Below are positions 29,050 through 63,134 of a DNA stretch of 64,000 nucleotides, piece after piece; position 1 is the stretch's first letter; every line of letters starts with the position of its first letter. The position numbers and the translations under genes were made by a program. The DNA is from Schmidtea nova (Eukaryota): the NCBI GenBank assembly GCA_044892505.1, contig CM097884.1:80476001-80540000 (forward strand), given 5' to 3'. The notes beneath the pieces are model-generated. The model saw nothing but the letters and a program-made list of their open reading frames with translations. It made no database searches and was not told the origin of the DNA.

Positions 29050-31560
29050 TGTTTCAAATAATTGAGTTGCATCCTCATGAAATATTTTTATTTCTTGCAT
29101 TCTTTGATAGACCATATTCATCATCTTTTAAAAGTTTTTTAGTACTTGCTAGTAAAACTTTAAAATTTCTTTTTTCTACTGCTAGCTTAAAGTTACTTCC
29201 AAAACATCTAAAATTCCGTACATTGGTACTTTCCTCAATTTTTAAAATTTGGTTATGGATTGCACTAGCTTGACTATGCACTAACCAAAGATATACGTAA
29301 CGGAGAGAAGTATTATCTAAATCTAGTTAAGTTTTTGGCTCTTTGTCATCAAATAGAAAAGCGATTTTAAGGCTTCAAATAATTTTTAAATTCTTTCTAT
29401 TACCGACAAAAGAGAAAGTCATCTTCTTTTGGAATAAGAAAGTTAAGTTTTACATTCTAGATTTTTGATTTGAAAAGAATCTTATAAATCTTTCATTTTT
29501 GAATTTATAAATAGAAAAATAATGGAAAATCTTGAAAACTATTTCAGCAATATCACACGATAATCGATCTGCTGCTGTTTTTAAATTTATATTTAGAAAA
29601 ATGGGCAGGGTAACCTATACTTTCAACTTATAAAACCTATACAACTTATACAACTTATACAACCTATACAACCTATACAACTTTTGCAACCTATACAACC
29701 TATTCAACTTATACAACCTATTCAACCTATACAACCTATACAACTTATACAACTTATACAATCTATACAACCTATACAACCTATACAACCTATACAACTT
29801 ATACAACTTATACAATCTATACAACCTATACAACCTATACAACCTATACAACTTATACAACCTATACAACCTATACAACCTATTCAACCTATACAACCTA
29901 TACAACTTATACAACTTATACAACCTATACAACCTATACAACCTATATAACCTATACAACCTATACAACTTATACAACCTATACAACCTATTCAACCTAT
30001 ACAACCTATACAACTTATACAACCTATACAACCTATACAACCTATTCAACCTATACAACCTATACAACTTTTGCAACCTATACAACCTATACAACCTATA
30101 CAACTTATACAACCTATACAACCTATACAACCTATTCAACCTATACAACCTATACAACTTATACAACTTATACAACCTATACAACCTATACAACCTATAC
30201 AACCTATACAACTTATACAACCTATACAACCTATTCAACCTATACAACCTATTCAACCTATACAACCTATACAACTTTTGCAACCTATACAACCTATACA
30301 ACTTATACAACCTATTCAACCTATACAACCTATACAACTTATACAACTTATACAATCTATACAACCTATACAACCTATACAACCTATACAACTTATACAA
30401 CTTATACAATCTATACAACCTATACAACCTATACAACCTATACAACTTATACAACCTATACAACCTATACAACCTATTCAACCTATACAACCTATACAAC
30501 TTATACAACTTATACAACCTATACAACCTATACAACCTATACAACCTATACAACTTATACAACCTATACAACCTATTCAACCTATACAACCTATACAACT
30601 TATACAACCTATACAACCTATACAACCTATTCAACCTATACAACCTATACAACTTTTGCAACCTATACAACCTATACAACTTATACAACCTATTCAACCT
30701 ATACAACCTATACAACTTATACAACTTATACAATCTATACAACCTATACAACCTATACAACCTATACAACTTATACAACTTATACAATCTATACAACCTA
30801 TACAACCTATACAACCTATACAACTTATACAACCTATACAACCTATACAACCTATTCAACCTATACTATATACCGAATCCTTCCTTTAATTTTGTGAAAA
30901 CATTGTTTTTTCTCATTCTTTGTATATCAACAACATTAACATTAACGTTGTCCCAACAAAGTGCGACACATCTTTTAAAGTCAGATTTCTGGTCTTTTAA
31001 TGTCTGAATACAAAATCTTAAAATAAATTGAGATTTTACACCTTTTAAACTACTTAATTTCAATGGTTTGACATGAATTCTACTTTTATTGAAAGATTGG
31101 ATAACAAATGGATGAAATAATATGCCACAAACTCTACACACAATCACTCCAGTTGTCCCAATACAGATTTTATAGATAACACTGCTGGACTTAACAAATT
31201 CCTAATACGACATGATTCGCTACGCTTCAATAAAATATACTAGCTTAATAGACTCTACTATGGCAACCATTTCAACGGATCTACTCATTGGAAGATTACT
31301 TTCAGAGAAATTCATAAAAGAATGGCAGAGGTGGTTCAAAATAATGAAAACACCAATAAAGACTCAGATAAAACTGGTCACAACACTTCTTGACAAGAAA
31401 TGGATTGATTTTACAAAGTCGCGCAAAAGGAATTGTAGAACAAAGGTTACTAGGTGTATTTATTAGATTGAACTTCGTTAATGGATGATTTTTAAAAGGC
31501 ATTGAGCTTAAAGTAAGGGAATGAACCAGCGGAATTATTTATGGAAAAAATTATAAAAAA
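29050..31560 (-). pseudogene. hAT transposase remnant (same group as the 50142-52408 element) split by a minisatellite
   Basis: Right of the array: CVALCWDNVNVN...RKNNVFTKLKE. Left of the array: IGYPAH...TAADRLSCDIAEIVFKIFHYFSIY...YSKRR*LSLLSVIERI*KLFEALKS...LWLVHSQ. Collinear with DNTNLNFGG..NNVWRKL...GCMAHI...DIEAIVVKI...TRFLTL of ORF 51142-51927. Confidence 0.8.
29633..30867. repeat. 9-bp minisatellite (CAACCTATA and variants), ~1.2 kb
   Basis: Units CAACCTATA, CAACTTATA, CAATCTATA, CAACCTATT, CAACTTTTG in tandem. Confidence 0.99.
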
Positions 31561-37065: not shown

Positions 37066-37084
37066 GAATGTGATTTTCAGGAAA

Positions 37085-37300
37085 AGTATTCATTAAAGTT
37101 GTTCCAACTTTGTTTTTATATTTATCTGGAGTGAAGAGCAATTTTCGCGTCTCCTGAAAGGCACTGATGAGATTCAAAAGTTCAAAACTAGTCTGCTATT
37201 GGGTATTTGCACTGGGTATCACAAAGCTTTACATTTTATTACTTGTTTAAAAACAAACAGTCATTCGACAAATATTTTTCAAAAGAAATTTAAATAACAA
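37085..37300 (+). mobile_element. Penelope-like pseudo-LTR fragment with hammerhead ribozyme (37157-37200)
   Basis: GGCA-CTGATGA-GATTC-AAAA-GTTC-AAAA-CTAG-TC-TGCTATT; homologous to 55100-55205 (-), 55257-55335 (+) and 55515-55705 (+). Confidence 0.65.
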
Positions 37301-38300: not shown

Positions 38301-38540
38301 TATCATAATTATCTTTTTTCATCTTTGATCTTTTGTTATTATTATTAAAAATAATTCTCATAATGACTATAGATCAAAATTTTTTTTATAAACAATAACA
38401 CAATATTTCGGCACAGTCTTTATCAAGTGTGTATTTGTGTATACACACTTGATAAAGGCTGTGCCGAAATATTGTGTTATTGTTTATAAAAAAAATTTTG
38501 ATCTATAGTCATTAAGAGAATTATTGATAATAATAATAAT
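38301..38540 (+). repeat. Foldback element, copy 4, subfamily B (plus degenerate neighbour at 38550-38705)
   Basis: Tail plus ~85-bp arms ending ...TTATCAAGTGTGTAT-TTGTGT-ATACACACTTGATAA...; near-perfect pairing. Confidence 0.95.
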
Positions 38541-41758: not shown

Positions 41759-41998
41759 TATCATAATTATCTTTTTGTTTCACCTTTGATCTTTTTTTAA
41801 TATTAATATGAATAATTCCCATAATGGTAAGACTATAGATCAAAATTTCTTTAAATAAATACACAATATTTCGGCACAGCCTTTATCAAGTGTGTATTAA
41901 ATTAATTGAAATACACACTTGATAAAGGCTGTGCCAAAATATATTGTACTTATTAAATAAATTTTGATCTATAGTCTTACCATTATGGGAATTATTGT
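41759..41998 (+). repeat. Foldback element, copy 5, subfamily A
   Basis: Tail TCATAATTATCTTTTTGTTTCACCTTTGATCTTTTTTT, then paired arms with a ~14-nt AT loop. Confidence 0.95.
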
Positions 41999-42359
41999 AA
42001 TTATTTTATATTTAAATCTGGTTTAATAATCATTTTTTACAGATCAAAATATACATTTTTTTTATTTTCAACCGATATTTTTGATATTGTTTTTTTTTCA
42101 AATGTAATGTAACACTTAAAATGGAGTACCAAATTTTTGACTAGAATTGGAAAAAACGAATCTGTAAAAACATCATAGGTAAAGAAGATTAATGATTTTA
42201 AAATTTTAAAATTGTAATTTAAAATTTCATTTTAAATATACAATTTCACCATTTATTATAAAATTACAATTCTTTTATGTACTAACTTCTTCTTGATCAG
42301 CTTAGGTTAGAACTGTGATTCTACAACATTTTCTGTCAACCACTGTTGATAATATTTTA

Positions 42360-49982: not shown

Positions 49983-52900
49983 CCTTCATTCTGTGCATTG
50001 GGGTCAAATGGACCCCAGTACATTTAAAAAGTGATTTTAAAAGAATTGAGCCAAGTAAATTAACCCGCCAACTCGGATTGCCTCAACTAATATATTTTAG
50101 ACACAATACAAAAAAACCGAATCTAAACCACTGTATATAAATAGGCTGGTCAGGAGGTTTTCTGAAAATTCCGGGACATTTTTGTTAAAAACCGAGACAT
50201 AGTTGAAATTGTCAGTAAAATAGAGAAAATATGTCAAAATTACACCTTTATTAGTTTTATTATTGAAACTTTCATATTATAAATTTTTCTAATCATATTT
50301 TCCACTTGAGTGCACCTTATCGAGGAAAACTGTATTCATTTTAATCATGTCGTAGAATTGACTGCAATTAAATTCCGCATTGAATTGGATAGTAAATAAG
50401 GAATCGAGAGTCGCTATTTCCAATCTGTTTTTCTGATCTCTCCATATTTTTTTGCTAACGAAAAAAGTCGCTCAACCTCGGTTGAAGTACCTGGTAAAGA
50501 AAATGCGAACTCCACAAGCCTTTCCAAATTGACGAATTGAGTAACAGTTTGTCGAAAATGCGTGAAGATTTGGAACCATACTTCATCAAGAGCAAGCTTG
50601 CTGGTAGTCCAGACGTTCATATTGGATTTGACAAAGCTTTTCATCAATTGAACTTCATCAAACAATAAGTCTCGGTCGATCTTCGATTGAATTTCCTTTC
50701 CATATCTGTCTTCAGCATATTTAAAAGATTTTTTGACATCATTCCAAGCTGGATACTTTCTCAAAATAATCAATGAAAATATTTCAGATCCCATCAACTG
50801 ATTTTTCCCATTAATCAATATATTCAATTGTTGTCCAATAAAAATTTTTGACTTTGTCCTTGATGTTTTCTTGATTTCGTTTGTCAAACTTTTAATTCTC
50901 AGATTGAGCAGCAGTTGGCAAAAAATTACAATTCATACGATTGATAAGCTTGACTTTCAATGTTGCAAGCTCATCGAAAGCTTCAAAAGAAGTAGTTGAT
51001 GATGCTTCAATAAGCTTGATGGAGTCACTGATGTTCTTGAGCTGATTGACAATGAAGAGAACCCAAAACTTTCCTTGAGCATTGTTGAAGAAAGAACGAG
51101 TCACTGGAGCACATTTCTCTAAGCCTAGAAAATATTGTTTTTTAAGGCTCAAACATTTCGATAATTCTTTTGACTGCAGGCTCGAGAGTGAGGAATCTAG
51201 TTCCAGAGTGGCTTTTCGTTGGAATGAAGACTTCATCAATGTCTCGGCATAGGTTCTTAAAATGTTCAGTACGCACAGTAAAAATACGGAAATGCTTATG
51301 AATTTTCACAACTATGGCTTCAATGTCTACCTCGAGAATTTCACATCCAGCTCCAGAAGCGTTTTGCGCTATGTGTGCCATACATCCATTGGCAATTATT
51401 TTTCGATTCAATTCTCTTTGAAGTTTTCTCCAAACATTATTCCCTCCATTCCTCTCCACGCCTCCAAAGTTTAGGTTGGTATTATCAGCAGCGTATGCAA
51501 CAACTTTATCTAACAAGCTTTCCTCCCTAATCACTTTCACAATTTCTTTGAAGATTGTCTCTGACTGATCATTAGGAATCAATACAGTAGCAAATTTCTT
51601 GTTGACAACACCTTTGACTGGATCAAAATATCGTAAAACGATCGGCAGCATTTTATTGTTTCCATGGTTTGATGTGTCGGTAATAAGAGAGACAAAATTT
51701 GCCTTGCTTATTGCATCTTTGATTGGTTTGTCAATGAATGGAGCATATACTTTGGAGATCACTTTTGCAGTCTTTGTCTTTCCGAGTGAAAACTTTGGAT
51801 CATAGAGTCCTCTGATAAGTCCAGCAGTACAGTCATTTGAACGAAATGAATAATTGTGTTTTGCATTGTGAAATACAAAAACTGCTTCTTTTCCAGCTAC
51901 CTTTTGCTCCTCATTTGTTGCTGTCAATTTCTGAAAATAATCGCTGACGACGAAAATATCTCGACGACCACCATGAACGATAAGAAATCAACTTGAACAG
52001 ATTGTACAAAGCGCCCGTGATTAATCATCCTGAACTTTTTGTAAATATCCAAACTCGAAAGAGTATTTATCATTCCATGAGGTTTTTCGATGTTTACTTG
52101 CTGATGACATTCTTAAACTAAACATTCTTAATCAATTTTTTCAATCAATCAATTATTAAATTCATACTAACAAACATTTTACAACTGAAACAAATGGCTA
52201 TGTGTATTGATTTTAAACCAATTTTCAGATATTTCTCAATGTAAAAATGACCTAGCTGCGAATGACCTTTTAAATATTTCCGTTACGAATATATTCAAAG
52301 CTTAAAAAAGAAAAAAGAATTCTAAATGGGGAGATATTGTAGCCAATTCCGGGACAGAGGTGCCAATCCGGGACTGTCCCGGATGATTCCACGCAAATGG
52401 CCAGCCTATATATAAATTTGTTACGACAATTTCAAATAAAGTAAACGCATTTCGGCACAATGGTGTCCAGTTGACCCCATATATTTAGAAATAGAACAAG
52501 AACAAGAAATAAAAAAAGAAAACATATGATATTATGCTCAAAACAAGAAATACAAACAAAAATGGAGCCCAAATCCTTCACGTGTTACCCGAGTTCGATA
52601 TTTTCAAATATTGAGAGAAAAAGAAGGCCTAACGGAACAAACCGCGCAAAACTTGAACTCACATTTACTAGCATATAAAGAATATCTCACAGAAACATTA
52701 GTTAATAAAATAGTTGCTGAGACTAATTACCAAACAAGACTGGACCGGTTGTGTGATGACAACTGACAGTATTCCGCGATGTTTGGAACATGTTTGCGGC
52801 AAAAATAAAAGAACCATACAAGCCGCCATAACACTTAACAATAGATGAACAGCTCGTAATAACTAGTGGCTGATGTTCTTTCAGACAATATATACCGTCT

Positions 52901-54139: not shown

Positions 54140-55145
54140 TTAAACTAATATGTATATAATATGCTTAGATATACCAACTCCGGTCATTTGAACTAGCCAC
54201 CATACAGTGAATGCTCGTATGAGCAATCAAAATAAACACACAACATACAAGTATACTTGTGTGATAATTTAGTATAGTATAATAATCAGTTCAAATTATC
54301 TTTGAGCCATAACTGGTGTTGTTTAATATATCTGTCTGAAAAATAGCGGCATCTAATATTATTTGCCGAAACGGTTGACAAATTTATTTACTGGAACTCC
54401 ACATATTTTTTTTCTCTACGATTGGTGATTTCTCTCAATGCTTCTGTCTATTGTCATTTTTGTGAAGTCTTAAATAAAGTAAGTATTGTACAGAACAAAA
54501 TATGTTTAACTAACTCTAAATCCTTTGTTTTATAGTATTGAAGGTAATTATGGTAACATTATCGCGAAATTCTAATGTTTTGGAAATTGTAACGAACATA
54601 AAGGAAGATTACTCCGGTATAAATTCAGAATCAAAATATAATAAAAATTTATCCAACAATAACAATGAAAATGAATCTTCCTTTTATGATAATATAAATG
54701 AACAATCTGTGAGTGAAAATTAAATTGAATAATCTGAAGATGACGATGAAAATTTTTATAATACCAATAGAAGGATATATAGAATACTATTCGTTCATAA
54801 TATGAAGTTGAAATTGAAGGATATCAGTTGACCAAGATTTGTAATGGTAGCAATGTGTGAACAAAATTATAAAAGGTGGTATTGCATGAATGGACTCTAT
54901 GCAGGATATTTTCAAGGATAAACCTTGCCAACTGCTATGGGAAACAAAATACCGTGCTAGATAATGCCAGGAGCTCGTTTTAGAAACGTTTTAAATTCAA
55001 AAATGCAGGGGGGAAAGAAGGTCACTATGTGAACCTTCTTTTGTCTTTCGAATTTTTATTTTCTTGATTATTTATTTTCATTCTTTTAGACTTATATTTC
55101 AATGTAATAAAAGGTAAAACCTTGTGATACCCAGTGCAAAACCCC

Positions 55146-55189
55146 AATAGCAGTCTAGTTTTGAACTTTTGACTCTCATCAGTGCTATT
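55146..55189 (-). ncRNA. Hammerhead ribozyme copy with core mutations
   Basis: AAUAGCA-CUGAUGA-GAGUC-AAAA-GUUC-AAAA-CUAG-AC-UGCUAUU: perfect 7-bp stem I, but GAAA>AAAA and GUC>GAC. Confidence 0.6.
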
Positions 55190-55587
55190 CAGGAGGCGTG
55201 AAAATTGTTCTTAGTGCCAGGTAAGTATAAAACAAAGTCGATCATTGAGTATCGATGCACTGGGTATCACAAAGCTTTATCTTTTATTGTTTGTTTAAAA
55301 ACAAATAGTCATCTGAAAAATATTTATCAAAAGATATTTTACGTGATTGAAATAATAAAAAAAGCTAAAGCAGTCGAGTGCGCTTGCAAACAGTTTCTGT
55401 TGAAAACTTTTAGTGCAAAGAAACGAATATGATATTCATGCGCCATGTTTGCAAGATACATATTATCTGTAAGCCCTAGCGTTTTCAAGTGATGTGATAT
55501 CCGGTGTACCAGTAACAGTATTCAACAAAGTTTTTTTGACTTTGTTTTCTACATACCTAGTGTGAAACTAATTTTCGCGTCTCCTGC

Positions 55588-55629
55588 ATAGCACTGATGA
55601 GAGCCAAAAGCTCGAAACTAGTTTGCTTT
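55588..55629 (+). ncRNA. Minimal type I hammerhead ribozyme (core intact)
   Basis: AUAGCA-CUGAUGA-GAGC-CAAAA-GCUC-GAAA-C-UA-G-UU/UGCUUU: stem I, catalytic box, 4-bp stem II, GAAA, palindromic CUAG stem III and a GUU cleavage triplet. Confidence 0.75.
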
Positions 55630-58600
55630 TGAGGTTTTGCACTGGGTATTGCTTGTTTAAAAACAAACAGTTTTCAGACAAATATTTTTCAAAATAAATC
55701 AATGTGTTGTTTTTTGTTTACCTTGAACTTTCAGCAGCTTCTTTTTCCTGTGTATTAAATAGAATATATACTTAATTGAAATTCTTCCCATAATCTGATC
55801 TTAGTTTGTTAACGTCAGTTGTCATGTACAGAAAGGATAAATCGGTGTCAATAAATTGCAGCTTTTAATTGGAGTCGCTGAAACTCTATCGACTCCCAAC
55901 TTGTTGAATAACATTTTTTAAGAACGTTAATAAAACGTAAAACGGTATTATTTATTTTCTTTTAAGATGAAAATAATGTACAATAAGATTTTCAAGTCTG
56001 TTCTTAAAGAATATCTAACAATTCCGATAAACTTATCACATAGAGTTATCGCCACCTTATTTACAATAATTGAACAAAATTCATAAAGCTATGTAAAAGA
56101 GAAGAAGCGACTTTTTGAAGTAAAACCTCAATTGCCCATATATCTAGTCAAAATTGTAAAATGAATAATCACCAGTTGAAAGAGTCAAATTTATATGAAT
56201 CGTTATCTAAAGTAACTTGGAGTTACTAAAGATTTTCAACTAGTGGAATGGACACTTGGCTTGCTAATTAAGAAAAAGAAAATGTTAACTATTAATTAAC
56301 CAAGTTGTTTTTGTCATTGCAGATTGTATTAGAAGACAATCTAATAGATAACCAGAGTCATCACATGCTTTCTGGAGGCCCCTTGTAACATTTCGGAATG
56401 AGGCCCCTCAGGCGAAAGTGATGCGCAGTCCATTTTACCTCACATTTTTTATAAAAAATAATATGGCGACAGAGTTCATATAGAAATTGACTTCCTGCAT
56501 AATGCTTGATAACTTTAGAAATGGTATTCTCATACGGAATGAAAAATTTTCGAATGAAAAATAATTCCGATTTAGATATCTTGATAAAGAATATTTCAAT
56601 TTGATCTCCATTTGTCATCTCTAAGCTGTCATTCTGATTTCTTCAATACTTATATTCTATAATTTATTCTTAAAAAGGTGAATAAACTTTTCTCCATCAT
56701 ATTTATAGAGTTACATTGTTTTGTGGGCCCCCTGCAACCGCAGGTGGTTAGGCAACGTTTCTGTTGATAACAGTGTGTTATTGGTTGCAATCTATATGGA
56801 TCCTAAGCGAAGGCTAATTTTAAATAACCAATAGCTTGTTTGATAATAAGTTTCACGCGAAATAGCTGCTTAATTTCATTTTTCAAGGTAATTATTTTCA
56901 GATTCTGAATACCAAACCTTTGATACGATCTCATTAATGATAAAAAAAGTCACCCACAAACAATGAGAAGTTCATGAATTTTGAAAAATATCTAGATAAT
57001 GAAAACAAATTCAAACCTGGTCATTCGATCGAAGTAAAAGAATAATTGGAGCTAAAATTAAACTCGTTAGCTTAATTTAATCAAATATTTATGAAAGCAT
57101 AATCACAAGTAAAGAAAATTTATCAGAAATGAAAGCTTGATGTAAAGAATGTTATACCAAAATATACTAAAATAACAGAATGTAGCCATTATTTTTTTTC
57201 ACAATTACTAACCCAAAAACCGCGTTAAAAATATTGGGTTTGCCAAATTTAATACAACACCAAGGAGCATTAAGTAGTGGCAGTTAGACAGCAATTAAGG
57301 TATCTATAATAAGAATTTAAATTATATATAGATAGAATACATACCTACTGCAGATAAAGACAAAAATTAAAATCATAGCCATAAATTACGGGCACATACT
57401 ATGGAAGAGGAGGAAAATAAATTAGGTCAGAAAGACACACATACATACCACACAAAGCCCTATAATAAAAATACACACACAGACAAATATTAAGTGACAA
57501 TCTTTAATTAAGGTATTTTAAAAATAAAATGATTTATAAAGACATTTCAGAAGCTTCATCAGAATTAACAATACCATTTATAAGAGAGGATCAGGAGAAA
57601 TGCAAATTTAAAATTATATTAAAAAATTTGTAAAAAATTATTTTTTGAAATGCAGAAATTGAAGTTATTATGCCTTAACCAGCCAAGTCTGTACAAGGAA
57701 AACATCAAAAAACGTAAAATAAATTTGAATTTTTATTTTAACTTAAAATTTTACAGATATACAGAACATGACAATATAATTACTAAAGGAAGTAATGAAA
57801 CGGGGTGAAGACTTTCAAGAATTTGGTAGGCAAATGAGTTTTGAAAAGTATCCGAAACATACTATCGAGTTGAAAAAAATTGGGCTTCTTACAACATGGG
57901 AAAGATGCAGAAAACATATCAGCCTAAAAAATGTAGAAAAGGATCACAATTATTTTCAAATAAAAATTATAATGACTTGGTTTTTCAGTATTTGATAAAT
58001 ATATAAAAAATATGTAAAATAAATTGATATTTATCTTAAAATATTAAATAAATTTCAAATATGCTAAAATAGTTTAAAACATTATAAATAATTATTACTC
58101 ACCAACTGCACATAATATGTCTTCGTCGCCCTTAATTACAGACAATCTGATGAATAATAAAGTGAAAACCACAGAAGATGTGTGTGAATATCTATAAAAA
58201 GGGTGAAATCTTAAAGGTAATAAATGTAGTACAACAATTAATTAATAATTGAAAAAAGTAAACAGATCAATATTTTGCGGGGAAACAGGCATGAACGGAT
58301 GACAATAGTATGACATATAAGATAATAATAAAAGATTGATGAAGGGTACCCTAAAAAGATATAAAAAAACAAATAAACTTTATAATTGTATGAAAACCCA
58401 AGCTGTAAACATAATTAGCGCATAAATTGAATTATTTTGAGAAGCCGGTGGCCTTTGGGGCTGAGAGCAGAGCGGTTAATTATTAGATTTTTTTAGAAGA
58501 TTTCGTTTTTCAGTTCATTTTTTAATTTTTTAAAAGAACACTAAATAATGAATGACAATTTTAATCAAATAGCCAATTGGTAGAAAAATCAAAACAAAAA

Positions 58601-59974: not shown

Positions 59975-61270
59975 CGTGGTGCGTTCAAAAAGTTTCCGGC
60001 CTACCCCAGAAAAAAGTAAAAGCAAGAAACCACAATTATATTTTTATCAACACAAATACCATTACTTCTCGAACCAATTACCTCCGGCATCGACACACTT
60101 CTGCCAACGACCAGGGAGGGCTTCGAATGCCCCATGGTGAAATGAGGGTGGAAGCTGGACAAAAATCCGATTTACAGCCTCCTCTGAATCGCCTGCATCC
60201 ATGAAATACTGTCCCCGCTGTTGCTTCTTCAATTCCGTAAATAGGCAGTAATCTGAGGGAGACAAATCAGGGCTGTATGAAGGGTGGCTAATCATCTCGA
60301 AGCCACAGTCATTGAGTTTTGCTTGGGCAATGCAGCTGGTGTGAACTGGCGCATTGTCATGTTGAAACTAGTGAGGGAGACCATATGGTTTTCGGCACTT
60401 TCTACGAGCTTGCTCAACGAGATTACCGTAATATTCTCCGCTGATTGTCCGTCCATTCTCAAGAAAGTCGGTGAGGATCACTCCCTTATGACTCCAAAAC
60501 ACAGTCAACATGAGTTCCCGTCTGTGCGACATTCCGGAACGAGACTTCCAAACCTTTCCTTCTTCCGTCTTTCTCCATTCCATAGACTCCCGCTTTGATT
60601 CAGGCTGATGTAGGGGCAACGGTGTCTCATCAACAGTGATGATGTTTTGGATAAATCTTTCTCCATACTTGCGGTAAATGGCGAGGTTCATGAGACACGC
60701 ATTCTTTCGGTTATTGCACATCTCAGTTGTCAAAAAGCGAGGCACAAAGCGAGACACCACCTTGTTGAAGTTAAGGTCTTTCAATAATTGCACTACGGTG
60801 CCGTGTGATATTTGTAGGGATTCTTCCAGCTGCCTGTTAGTTATACGGCGATCTTCCAGTACCATTTTCTCCAATTTTTCCTTCACATCTTCATTTCTCG
60901 AAGTCGTTGGTCGACCCTCTCGTTCCTCATCTGACACACTTTGCCGACCCCGTTTGAATTCAGCAATCCAAAACTTGATGGTAGACTGAGAGGGACACTT
61001 TTCGCCATAGGCTCGATTCAGATTTGTCATGATTTCCTAGTTGGTTTGGCCGAGAAGAACACAAAAGCGAATAGCACTGCGATACTCAATTTTTTTCCAG
61101 CGAATGCACTTGCAACGACATTTCCATCTGCAATAGATAAAGTAAATAAATTAGGTCAATAAGATTTTCAACATGAAATTTTCAATAAATTTCCAATAAA
61201 ATAAACCTATTTCCATTAAAAAATCAATTTGTTAAGTAGGATAGGCCGGAAACTTTTTGACCGCACCACG
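59975..61270 (-). mobile_element. mariner (DD34D) transposon, full length, nearly intact
   Basis: 29-bp TIRs CGTGGTGCG(T/G)TCAAAAAGTTTCCGGCCTA with TA TSD. ORFs 60368-61030 and 60062-60295 share one frame, split by a single TAG; ITVDET / QHDNA / YSPDLSPSDY with 34 residues between the second and third D. An extra stop and a frameshift lie near the N-terminus. Confidence 0.97.
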
Positions 61271-62747: not shown

Positions 62748-63134
62748 GGCACTTATTCACTTTACGCCCCCNNNNNNNNNNNNNNNNNNNNNNNNNNNNN
62801 NNNNNNNNNNNNNNNNNNNNNNNNNNNNNNNNNNNNNNNNNNNNNNNNNNNNNNNNNNNNNNNNNNNNNNNNNNNNNNNNNNNNNNNNNNNNNNNNNNNN
62901 NNNNNNNNNNNNNNNNNNNNNNNNNNNNNNNNNNNNNNNNNNNNNNNNNNNNNNNNNNNNNNNNNNNNNNNNNNNNNNNNNNNNNNNNNNNNNNNNNNNN
63001 NNNNNNNNNNNNNNNNNNNNNNNNNNNNNNNNNNNNNNNNNNNNNNNNNNNNNNNNNNNNNNNNNNNNNNNNNNNNNNNNNNNNNNNNNNNNNNNNNNNN
63101 NNNNNNNNCTGGGGGCATAAAGTGAATAAGTGCC
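62748..63134. mobile_element. TIR element (MITE-like) whose interior is an assembly gap
   Basis: GGCACTTATTCACTTTA(C/T)GCCCC at 62748-62770 pairs with 63112-63134; TTT on both flanks; interior is N. Confidence 0.75.

What the first reader, a model, noticed from the sequence alone, without database searches (positions are those of the whole stretch)
55100..55705. Minimal hammerhead ribozymes in an inverted + tandem pseudo-LTR arrangement without an RT gene
Seen: three CUGAUGA-containing copies in the window with consensus AAUAGCA-CUGAUGA-GAGC-CAAAA-GCUC-GAAA-CUAG-UC-UGCUAUU; the copy at 55588 keeps the whole catalytic core. At 55.1-55.7 kb one inverted copy precedes direct copies. Established: Penelope-like retroelements carry minimal type I hammerheads with a short palindromic stem III that can work as dimers, and show inverted plus tandem pseudo-LTRs. 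No RT or GIY-YIG coding sequence is recognisable between the copies. Inference: a short non-autonomous Penelope derivative or retrozyme-like element in this lineage.
Basis: partly seen in the sequence, partly recalled or inferred. Interest (0 to 1): 0.7.

Follow-up and report, generated by a model that had tools for sequence, protein, structure and literature searches.

The report
Penelope-borne retrozyme carrying U1's tip
This is a decayed copy of a very abundant 382-base mobile repeat with a hammerhead (self-cutting RNA) motif, likely copied around the genome by Penelope-type jumping genes, and the repeat carries an exact copy of the first 17 bases of the host's U1 splicing RNA, likely picked up by a copying slip and of untested use.

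Summary
Window 55104-55694 is one insertion of a ~380-bp repeat: an inverted 138-bp arm, then a 439-bp direct arm. Only the copy at 55588 keeps the catalytic core. The ribozyme is a canonical type I hammerhead, not the 'minimal' kind. The family has at least 3,677 exact 36-base copies and long tandem arrays: a non-LTR retrozyme. Its insertions show Penelope marks: head-to-head inversions (34 of 88 loci), two 3' ends about 35 nt apart (114 of 131 arms), ends in TAA/TTA repeats. Two autonomous Penelope-like families here end the same way, but neither shares its tail sequence. An older sister family gives four compensatory pair changes in the ribozyme. Extra: the unit holds nt 1-17 of the host's U1 snRNA, 76 nt before the cut. 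The sister family has tRNA-like boxes in that slot. The U1 piece is predicted to be locked in a hairpin, and no copy starts at it. No RNA data. The scan noted this family before in this genome, and a U1 tip in another genome.

The parts
55104..55241 (-). Inverted, 5'-truncated arm (unit positions 272 to 30 of the older-type unit); ends at the proximal 3' site, no tail extension
55141..55196 (-). Hammerhead copy with broken core (G12>A, U16.1>A)
55212..55228 (-). U1 snRNA 5' piece, 14 of 17 nt match (nt 1-13 exact); on the + strand it reads as a consensus 5' splice site
   Evidence: match counted by eye
55242..55255 (.). 14-nt junction between the arms, not assigned to the unit
55256..55694 (+). 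Direct arm: one full unit plus tail (unit 375 to 72), about 83% identical to the young unit, 20-nt deletion after 55649
55505..55560 (+). Decayed copy of the long hairpin whose 3' arm is the U1-like strand (predicted from family units)
   Evidence: bounds approximate
55549..55565 (+). U1 snRNA 5' piece, decayed, 11 of 17 nt match
   Evidence: counted by eye
55580..55635 (+). Canonical type I hammerhead, core intact, GUU triplet, cut predicted after 55623; one stem I mismatch and two in its extension
55650..55694 (+). 3' end running to the distal site: the Penelope-type 'tail', present at this end of the insertion only
   Evidence: PMC8557442 passages
37078..37294 (+). Separate solo, 5'-truncated copy of the same family; hammerhead broken (G12>A, stem II mismatch)

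Best explanation
The locus is a decayed insertion of a 382-bp non-coding retrozyme that is likely transcribed from tandem arrays and likely copied into AT-rich DNA by the reverse transcriptase and endonuclease of an autonomous Penelope-like element, and whose unit carries nt 1-17 of the host U1 snRNA, likely captured by a template switch. Shown: the unit, its arrays, the inversions, the two 3' ends, the U1 identity, and pair-preserving changes in the ribozyme between two families. Inferred: multi-unit RNA is bound by a Penelope protein, reverse transcription starts inside the RNA at one of two sites about 58 and 93 nt after the ribozyme cut site, and it stops at random or at the base of the U1 hairpin; an inverted second arm forms at the 5' end. 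Inferred from other animals: the ribozyme cuts multimers to monomers that are circularised. The U1 strand is predicted to be paired in a ~25-bp hairpin, so it most likely now serves as structure, not as a free splice-site binder or a start site.
For: 3,677 exact 36-mers, with 380-383-bp tandem arrays; 17 units of one array differ by 0-2 nt. Head-to-head inversion in 34 of 88 loci picked by a tail motif; 114 of 131 arm 3' ends in two zones; 23 of 29 young ends run into TAA/TTA/TA repeats (by eye). Same two-end pattern in an 856-aa RT+GIY-YIG family (43 of 46 rows, some loci overlapping) and a 903-aa RT family (34 of 38 rows). Two internal RT start sites, ATT cleavage and the tail are shown in vitro for an anole Penelope (PMC11167929). 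Ribozyme: families A and B differ by 4 double-sided and 2 single-sided pair-keeping changes, none breaking a pair; 65 of 102 copies keep the core. U1: longest common word 17 nt against a maximum of 15 in 2,000 shuffles; it begins exactly at U1 nt 1; 47 of 69 copies have nt 17. Circular fold z -7.7 and -9.6 with U1 nt 1-17 paired. 12 of 131 5' ends lie in the 9 nt just behind the U1 piece (scan p 0.02).
Against: No helper identified: the tail does not match either autonomous family better than shuffles, and only two families were examined. No cleavage, expression or circle was observed. 8 of 9 Xenopus retrozyme dimers did not cleave in vitro (bioRxiv 10.64898/2026.07.22.740005), and cleavage was not needed for insertion of the anole element. 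5' ends show no peak at the cut site (1 of 131 at 360-363). Stem II is identical in A and B, so it shows no covariation. The template-switch origin does not explain why the hairpin includes about 12 nt upstream of U1 nt 1. The 5'-end cluster was seen after the fact. Family B rests on 15 loci at about 80% identity.
Confidence: 0.75

Rival explanations
1. The U1 piece marks a transcription start: each unit works like an snRNA gene, with its promoter in the upstream part of the unit, as reported for newt satellite 2. It would have replaced the tRNA-type promoter of the sister family.
For: Host U1/U2 genes share an ATGCA-type motif at -67 to -70 (6 of 7 promoters gave an anchor), and the unit's best profile hit lies at -71. 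The young unit has TATATAA at -29. The sister family has a B-box match in 12 of 19 copies and a relaxed tRNA call in this slot. The newt and schistosome precedents are cited in PMC2220036.
Against: The -71 hit is on the opposite strand. No upstream homology to 9 U1 loci beats shuffles. The TATA is absent from the older subfamily. 0 of 131 5' ends fall at the U1 start. Only about 45 nt upstream of the piece are specific to this family, and they form the hairpin.
Confidence: 0.12
2. The U1 piece is kept for a splicing-related role. The RNA could expose it as a U1 mimic that pairs with 5' splice sites, or the antisense strand's perfect donor site could recruit U1 snRNP to read-through transcripts of inverted arms.
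For: Nt 1-16 are unchanged between the old and young subfamily while the partner arm changed. About 3,974 linked U1-plus-ribozyme motifs against 4 U1 genes with this 5' variant. An unchecked scan note reports a U1 tip in a hammerhead repeat of another genome.
Against: The piece is predicted to be fully paired. Copy-level identity (96%) is close to that of its neighbours (91-92%, which include subfamily-variable sites). The subfamilies are too close for the lack of change to mean much. No Sm site or U1 stem-loops align.
Confidence: 0.1
3. It is a satellite-like DNA repeat spread by recombination, with a chance hammerhead-like motif.
For: Near-identical tandem arrays exist; the window copies do not fold as hammerheads.
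Against: Dispersed, 5'-truncated, inverted copies with fixed 3' ends; compensatory changes.
Confidence: 0.03

Closest known systems
Metazoan non-LTR retrozymes (Cervera and de la Pena 2020, PMC7229834; Li, Clavereau and Pollet, bioRxiv 10.64898/2026.07.22.740005)
   Same: Tandem 150-450-bp non-coding units, one canonical type I hammerhead each, highly self-paired predicted circle, co-occurrence with autonomous Penelope-like elements; reported in platyhelminths among others.
   Different: Here the Penelope insertion marks (inversion, two 3' ends, microsatellite targets) are counted on the retrozyme itself; 'inverted' does not occur in PMC7229834. A U1-derived piece is not mentioned in the parts read. 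RNA, cleavage and circles untested here.
Endonuclease-positive Penelope-like elements (PMC4209133, PMC8557442, PMC11167929)
   Same: 5' truncation, inverted 5' arm, partial tandems, 30-40-bp tail at one end, AT-rich targets, hammerhead upstream of the 3' ends.
   Different: No ORF; canonical rather than minimal hammerhead; no sequence link to the two autonomous families examined.
SINEU of crocodilians (Kojima 2015, PMC4494074)
   Same: U1/U2-derived sequence added to a non-autonomous retroelement, attributed to template switching.
   Different: SINEU heads are at the 5' end and use Tx1 LINEs; here 17 nt sit inside a circularly permuted, ribozyme-bearing unit, in a hairpin.
Schistosome Sm-alpha and newt satellite 2 (seen only through passages of PMC2770079 and PMC2220036; original papers not held)
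   Same: Hammerhead repeats with a small-RNA-gene module: tRNA-Gln(TTG)-like in Sm-alpha, resembling sister family B; snRNA-type promoter in the newt.
   Different: Family A carries transcribed U1 sequence, with no good evidence for the promoter.

Membership tests
Non-LTR retrozyme | Short non-coding unit in tandem copies, one type I hammerhead per unit | tested here: met
Non-LTR retrozyme | Highly self-paired unit RNA | tested here: met
   circular fold z -7.7 and -9.6; prediction only
Non-LTR retrozyme | Self-cleavage and accumulation as linear and circular RNA | not testable with these tools
   needs bench work
Non-LTR retrozyme | This locus active (two consecutive complete ribozymes, criterion) | tested here: not met
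   one sense ribozyme at this locus; met by arrays such as L032
Canonical type I hammerhead | Conserved core, 6-bp helix I, 4-bp helix II, short palindromic helix III | tested here: met
   Rfam score below gathering cut-off
Canonical type I hammerhead | Covariation of stems | tested here: met
   between families A and B in stem I, its extension and the palindrome; not in stem II, not within a family
Minimal PLE hammerhead (min-HHR) | Long helix II with an unpaired 5' base, short helix I, little or no helix III | tested here: not met
   the autonomous families do have this form
Penelope-like element (autonomous) | RT plus GIY-YIG ORF | tested here: not met
   no tblastn match in the window; no ORF of 100 aa over the locus
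Penelope-mobilised element | Inverted 5' arm, partial tandems, two 3' ends 30-40 nt apart, AT-rich targets | tested here: met
Penelope-mobilised element | 3' sequence shared with an autonomous partner | tested here: not met
   two families examined; others not
snRNA-promoter repeat (newt satellite 2 type) | Host snRNA promoter motif at the right place and strand; start at the snRNA-like base | tested here: inconclusive
   right place, wrong strand; no 5' ends at the base
SINEU | U1/U2-derived head at the element's 5' end, Tx1-mobilised | tested here: not met
   U1 piece is internal; Penelope-type ends

The most novel reading that the evidence does not exclude
This retrozyme lineage swapped a tRNA-type module for the splice-site-reading tip of U1 and keeps it under selection: a catalytic, Penelope-borne parasite RNA that uses a U1 mimic, switched on and off by a hairpin, to engage the spliceosome or nascent transcripts, at about a thousand times the gene dose of the matching U1 genes.
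Probability: 0.15. Interest if true: 0.8.

Novelty: new variant of a known kind. Interest (0 to 1): 0.5.

Why it matters
That animal retrozymes ride on Penelope machinery has been argued from co-occurrence and phylogeny. This family shows the mechanical marks, with young arrays and two candidate helper families in one genome, so the in vitro assay published for the anole element can test it directly. The U1 piece and the tRNA-headed sister show small-RNA modules being exchanged in front of one ribozyme. If the U1 tip has a use, it would link a ribozyme retroelement to splicing. If not, it is a clear record of a template switch.

Tried and rejected
RNA evidence: no RNA holder listed; the 4 runs laid are contigs of unknown kind, two with what I recall as a tagmentation adapter, and say nothing on expression. 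Rfam on the whole window missed the ribozymes and gave only sub-threshold miRNA hits on hairpins. Rfam hammerhead search of the genome returned 2 weak hits, one of which led to family B. A by-eye likeness between the older tail and the 856-aa family's tail was rejected (p about 0.4); likewise the 903-aa family. A pair of ribozymes 4.4 kb apart (L031) proved to be separate short copies, with no Penelope match between them. U1A- and U1-70K-like words 3' of the ribozyme (recalled motifs) do not align with host U1. Cleaved RNA as template: no peak at the cut; 11 of 131 5' ends at 362-373 may be a sampling effect. A-B homology outside the ribozyme is significant in only 2 of 19 B copies upstream and 1 of 19 in the tail, and in 0 of 19 in the swapped slot. 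Rfam gave no tRNA hit on 9 B loci; ARAGORN finds none at default settings. Coats 1994, Cremisi 1992 and Ferbeyre 1998 were not held. The supplement of PMC7229834 could not be read and bioRxiv supplements are closed; either may list this family.

Full report
1. Observation. The three copies are real. The locus is one insertion: a minus arm at 55104-55241, a 14-nt junction, and a plus arm at 55256-55694 that spans one unit plus a tail. Only the ribozyme at 55580-55635 keeps its core, with the cut predicted after 55623. The bare pattern is weak evidence (4 hits against 1.2), Rfam missed all three in the window, and none folds better than shuffles.

2. The family. The genome (1.25 Gb) holds 3,677 exact copies of a 36-base ribozyme stretch, control 0, many in 380-383-bp arrays; one array has 5 minus units followed by 18 plus units, and 17 units checked differ by 0-2 nt. 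Young units score 27.6 bits on Rfam Hammerhead_1, under the cut-off of 34. An older and a younger subfamily can be told apart (46 and 16 of 62 segments); the window copy is of the older type. 65 of 102 ribozymes in loci picked by a tail motif keep the core. By PMC4209133 (parts 1-2 of 4 read) the motif is canonical type I, not minimal.

3. Selection on the ribozyme. A Rfam search of the genome led to an older family B (40 loci scored, 15 fetched). Between 79 distinct A copies and 16 B copies the commonest pairs differ on both sides at four places (two in the stem I extension, one in stem I, the middle of the stem III palindrome) and on one side at two, with no pair broken; stem II is the same. 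Within a family copies simply decay.

4. Penelope marks. Of 90 loci fetched on a tail motif, 2 were dropped as repeats of the same place. Of 88, 34 have a head-to-head inversion; 114 of 131 arm 3' ends fall in two zones. In young loci the zones are sharp, about 58 and 93 nt after the cut, and 23 of 29 ends run into TAA, TTA or TA repeats (by eye). The window insertion ends at the near site on one arm and the far site on the other, matching the one-sided 30-40-bp tail of PMC8557442 (passages). PMC11167929 (parts 1-2 of 4) traces that tail to two internal RT start sites and ATT cleavage. Two young autonomous families are present: 856 aa with RT and GIY-YIG and 903 aa with RT (its C-terminus is 33% identical to the first family's, with no Pfam GIY-YIG hit). 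Both have minimal hammerheads and two 3' ends (43 of 46 and 34 of 38 rows). Neither shares tail sequence with the retrozyme beyond chance, so the helper is not named.

5. The U1 piece. Unit positions 288-304 equal nt 1-17 of two of the six host U1 variants compared, 76 nt before the cut. The longest shared word in 2,000 shuffles was 15. The older consensus matches 16 nt. 15 of 62 aligned copies match 17 of 17, 15 match 16. A pattern linking it to the ribozyme core has 3,974 hits; 4 U1 genes carry this start. A splice donor on the other strand would explain 11 nt, not 17. Family B has no homology in this slot (0 of 19) and has tRNA-like boxes there: B-box match in 12 of 19 copies, an ARAGORN call (Lys or Gln) only at relaxed score, no Rfam tRNA hit. 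Sm-alpha of schistosomes is tRNA-Gln-like (PMC2770079 passages).

6. What the piece does. In circular folds (z -7.7, -9.6) it is the 3' arm of a ~25-bp hairpin. No 5' end of 131 lies at its first base; 12 lie in the 9 nt just behind it (scan p 0.02, post hoc), which fits reverse transcriptase stopping at the hairpin in an RNA that starts further up. A promoter reading has one hint: a host snRNA motif at -67 to -70 and the unit's best hit at -71, but reversed; there is no upstream homology and the TATA is not in the older type. Copy-level conservation is not clearly raised. I therefore favour capture by template switch, as proposed for SINEU (PMC4494074, abstract and Discussion), with a structural role now.

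7. Known and new. Non-LTR retrozymes are known (PMC7229834: passages, parts 2 and 4 of 6, section 14; bioRxiv 10.64898/2026.07.22.740005, parts 1-3 of 5). I found no paper on a U1 piece in a retrozyme: one search gave 1 paper (a plant RNA review, listing only), one search gave 0, and searches gave none by listing. The library lacks most subscription papers, and unseen supplements may list this family. PMC6155905 and PMC2220036 were seen as passages; the newt and schistosome originals were not held. The scan has noted this family in this genome and a U1 tip in another genome; I had found both features before those calls. Those notes suggest a flatworm host, which I did not test.

8. Verdict. 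Real, a known kind of element, a dead copy at this locus. The new elements are the counted Penelope marks, the U1 capture and the tRNA-headed sister. Interest 0.5.

Noticed in passing
window 3150-3420, 15007-15160, 38336-38540, 41767-42010: Near-perfect hairpin repeats that hold a minimal hammerhead with the U3/A8 core variant on each arm; the same repeat follows a GIY-YIG match in L067. Likely head-to-head stubs of a Penelope-like element.
   Followed up: partly
L106, L153-L167: Family B: older hammerhead retrozyme with tRNA-like A and B boxes before the ribozyme and head-to-head copies; resembles Sm-alpha.
   Followed up: partly
L308 (G000:C1:4733000-4742999): Very young Penelope-like family: 2,698-bp tandem units with a 903-codon open frame, first ATG at the start of the ribozyme's stem II as in the anole element.
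   Followed up: partly
L071: 856-aa Penelope-like family whose minimal hammerhead has U at position 3 opposite G8.
   Followed up: partly
L086-L105, L138-L152: Several divergent U1 variants, one in ~2.5-kb tandem arrays; U2 in a 930-bp tandem array; shared ATGCA-type motif at -67 to -70, a candidate snRNA promoter element.
   Followed up: partly
window 29480-31000: Long 9-bp tandem repeat.
   Followed up: no
window 50414-51987 (-) and 60062-61036 (-): Broken reading frames that look like hAT-type and mariner-type transposases (recalled likeness, not searched).
   Followed up: no
window 62748-63134: Inverted repeat arms around a stretch of N.
   Followed up: no
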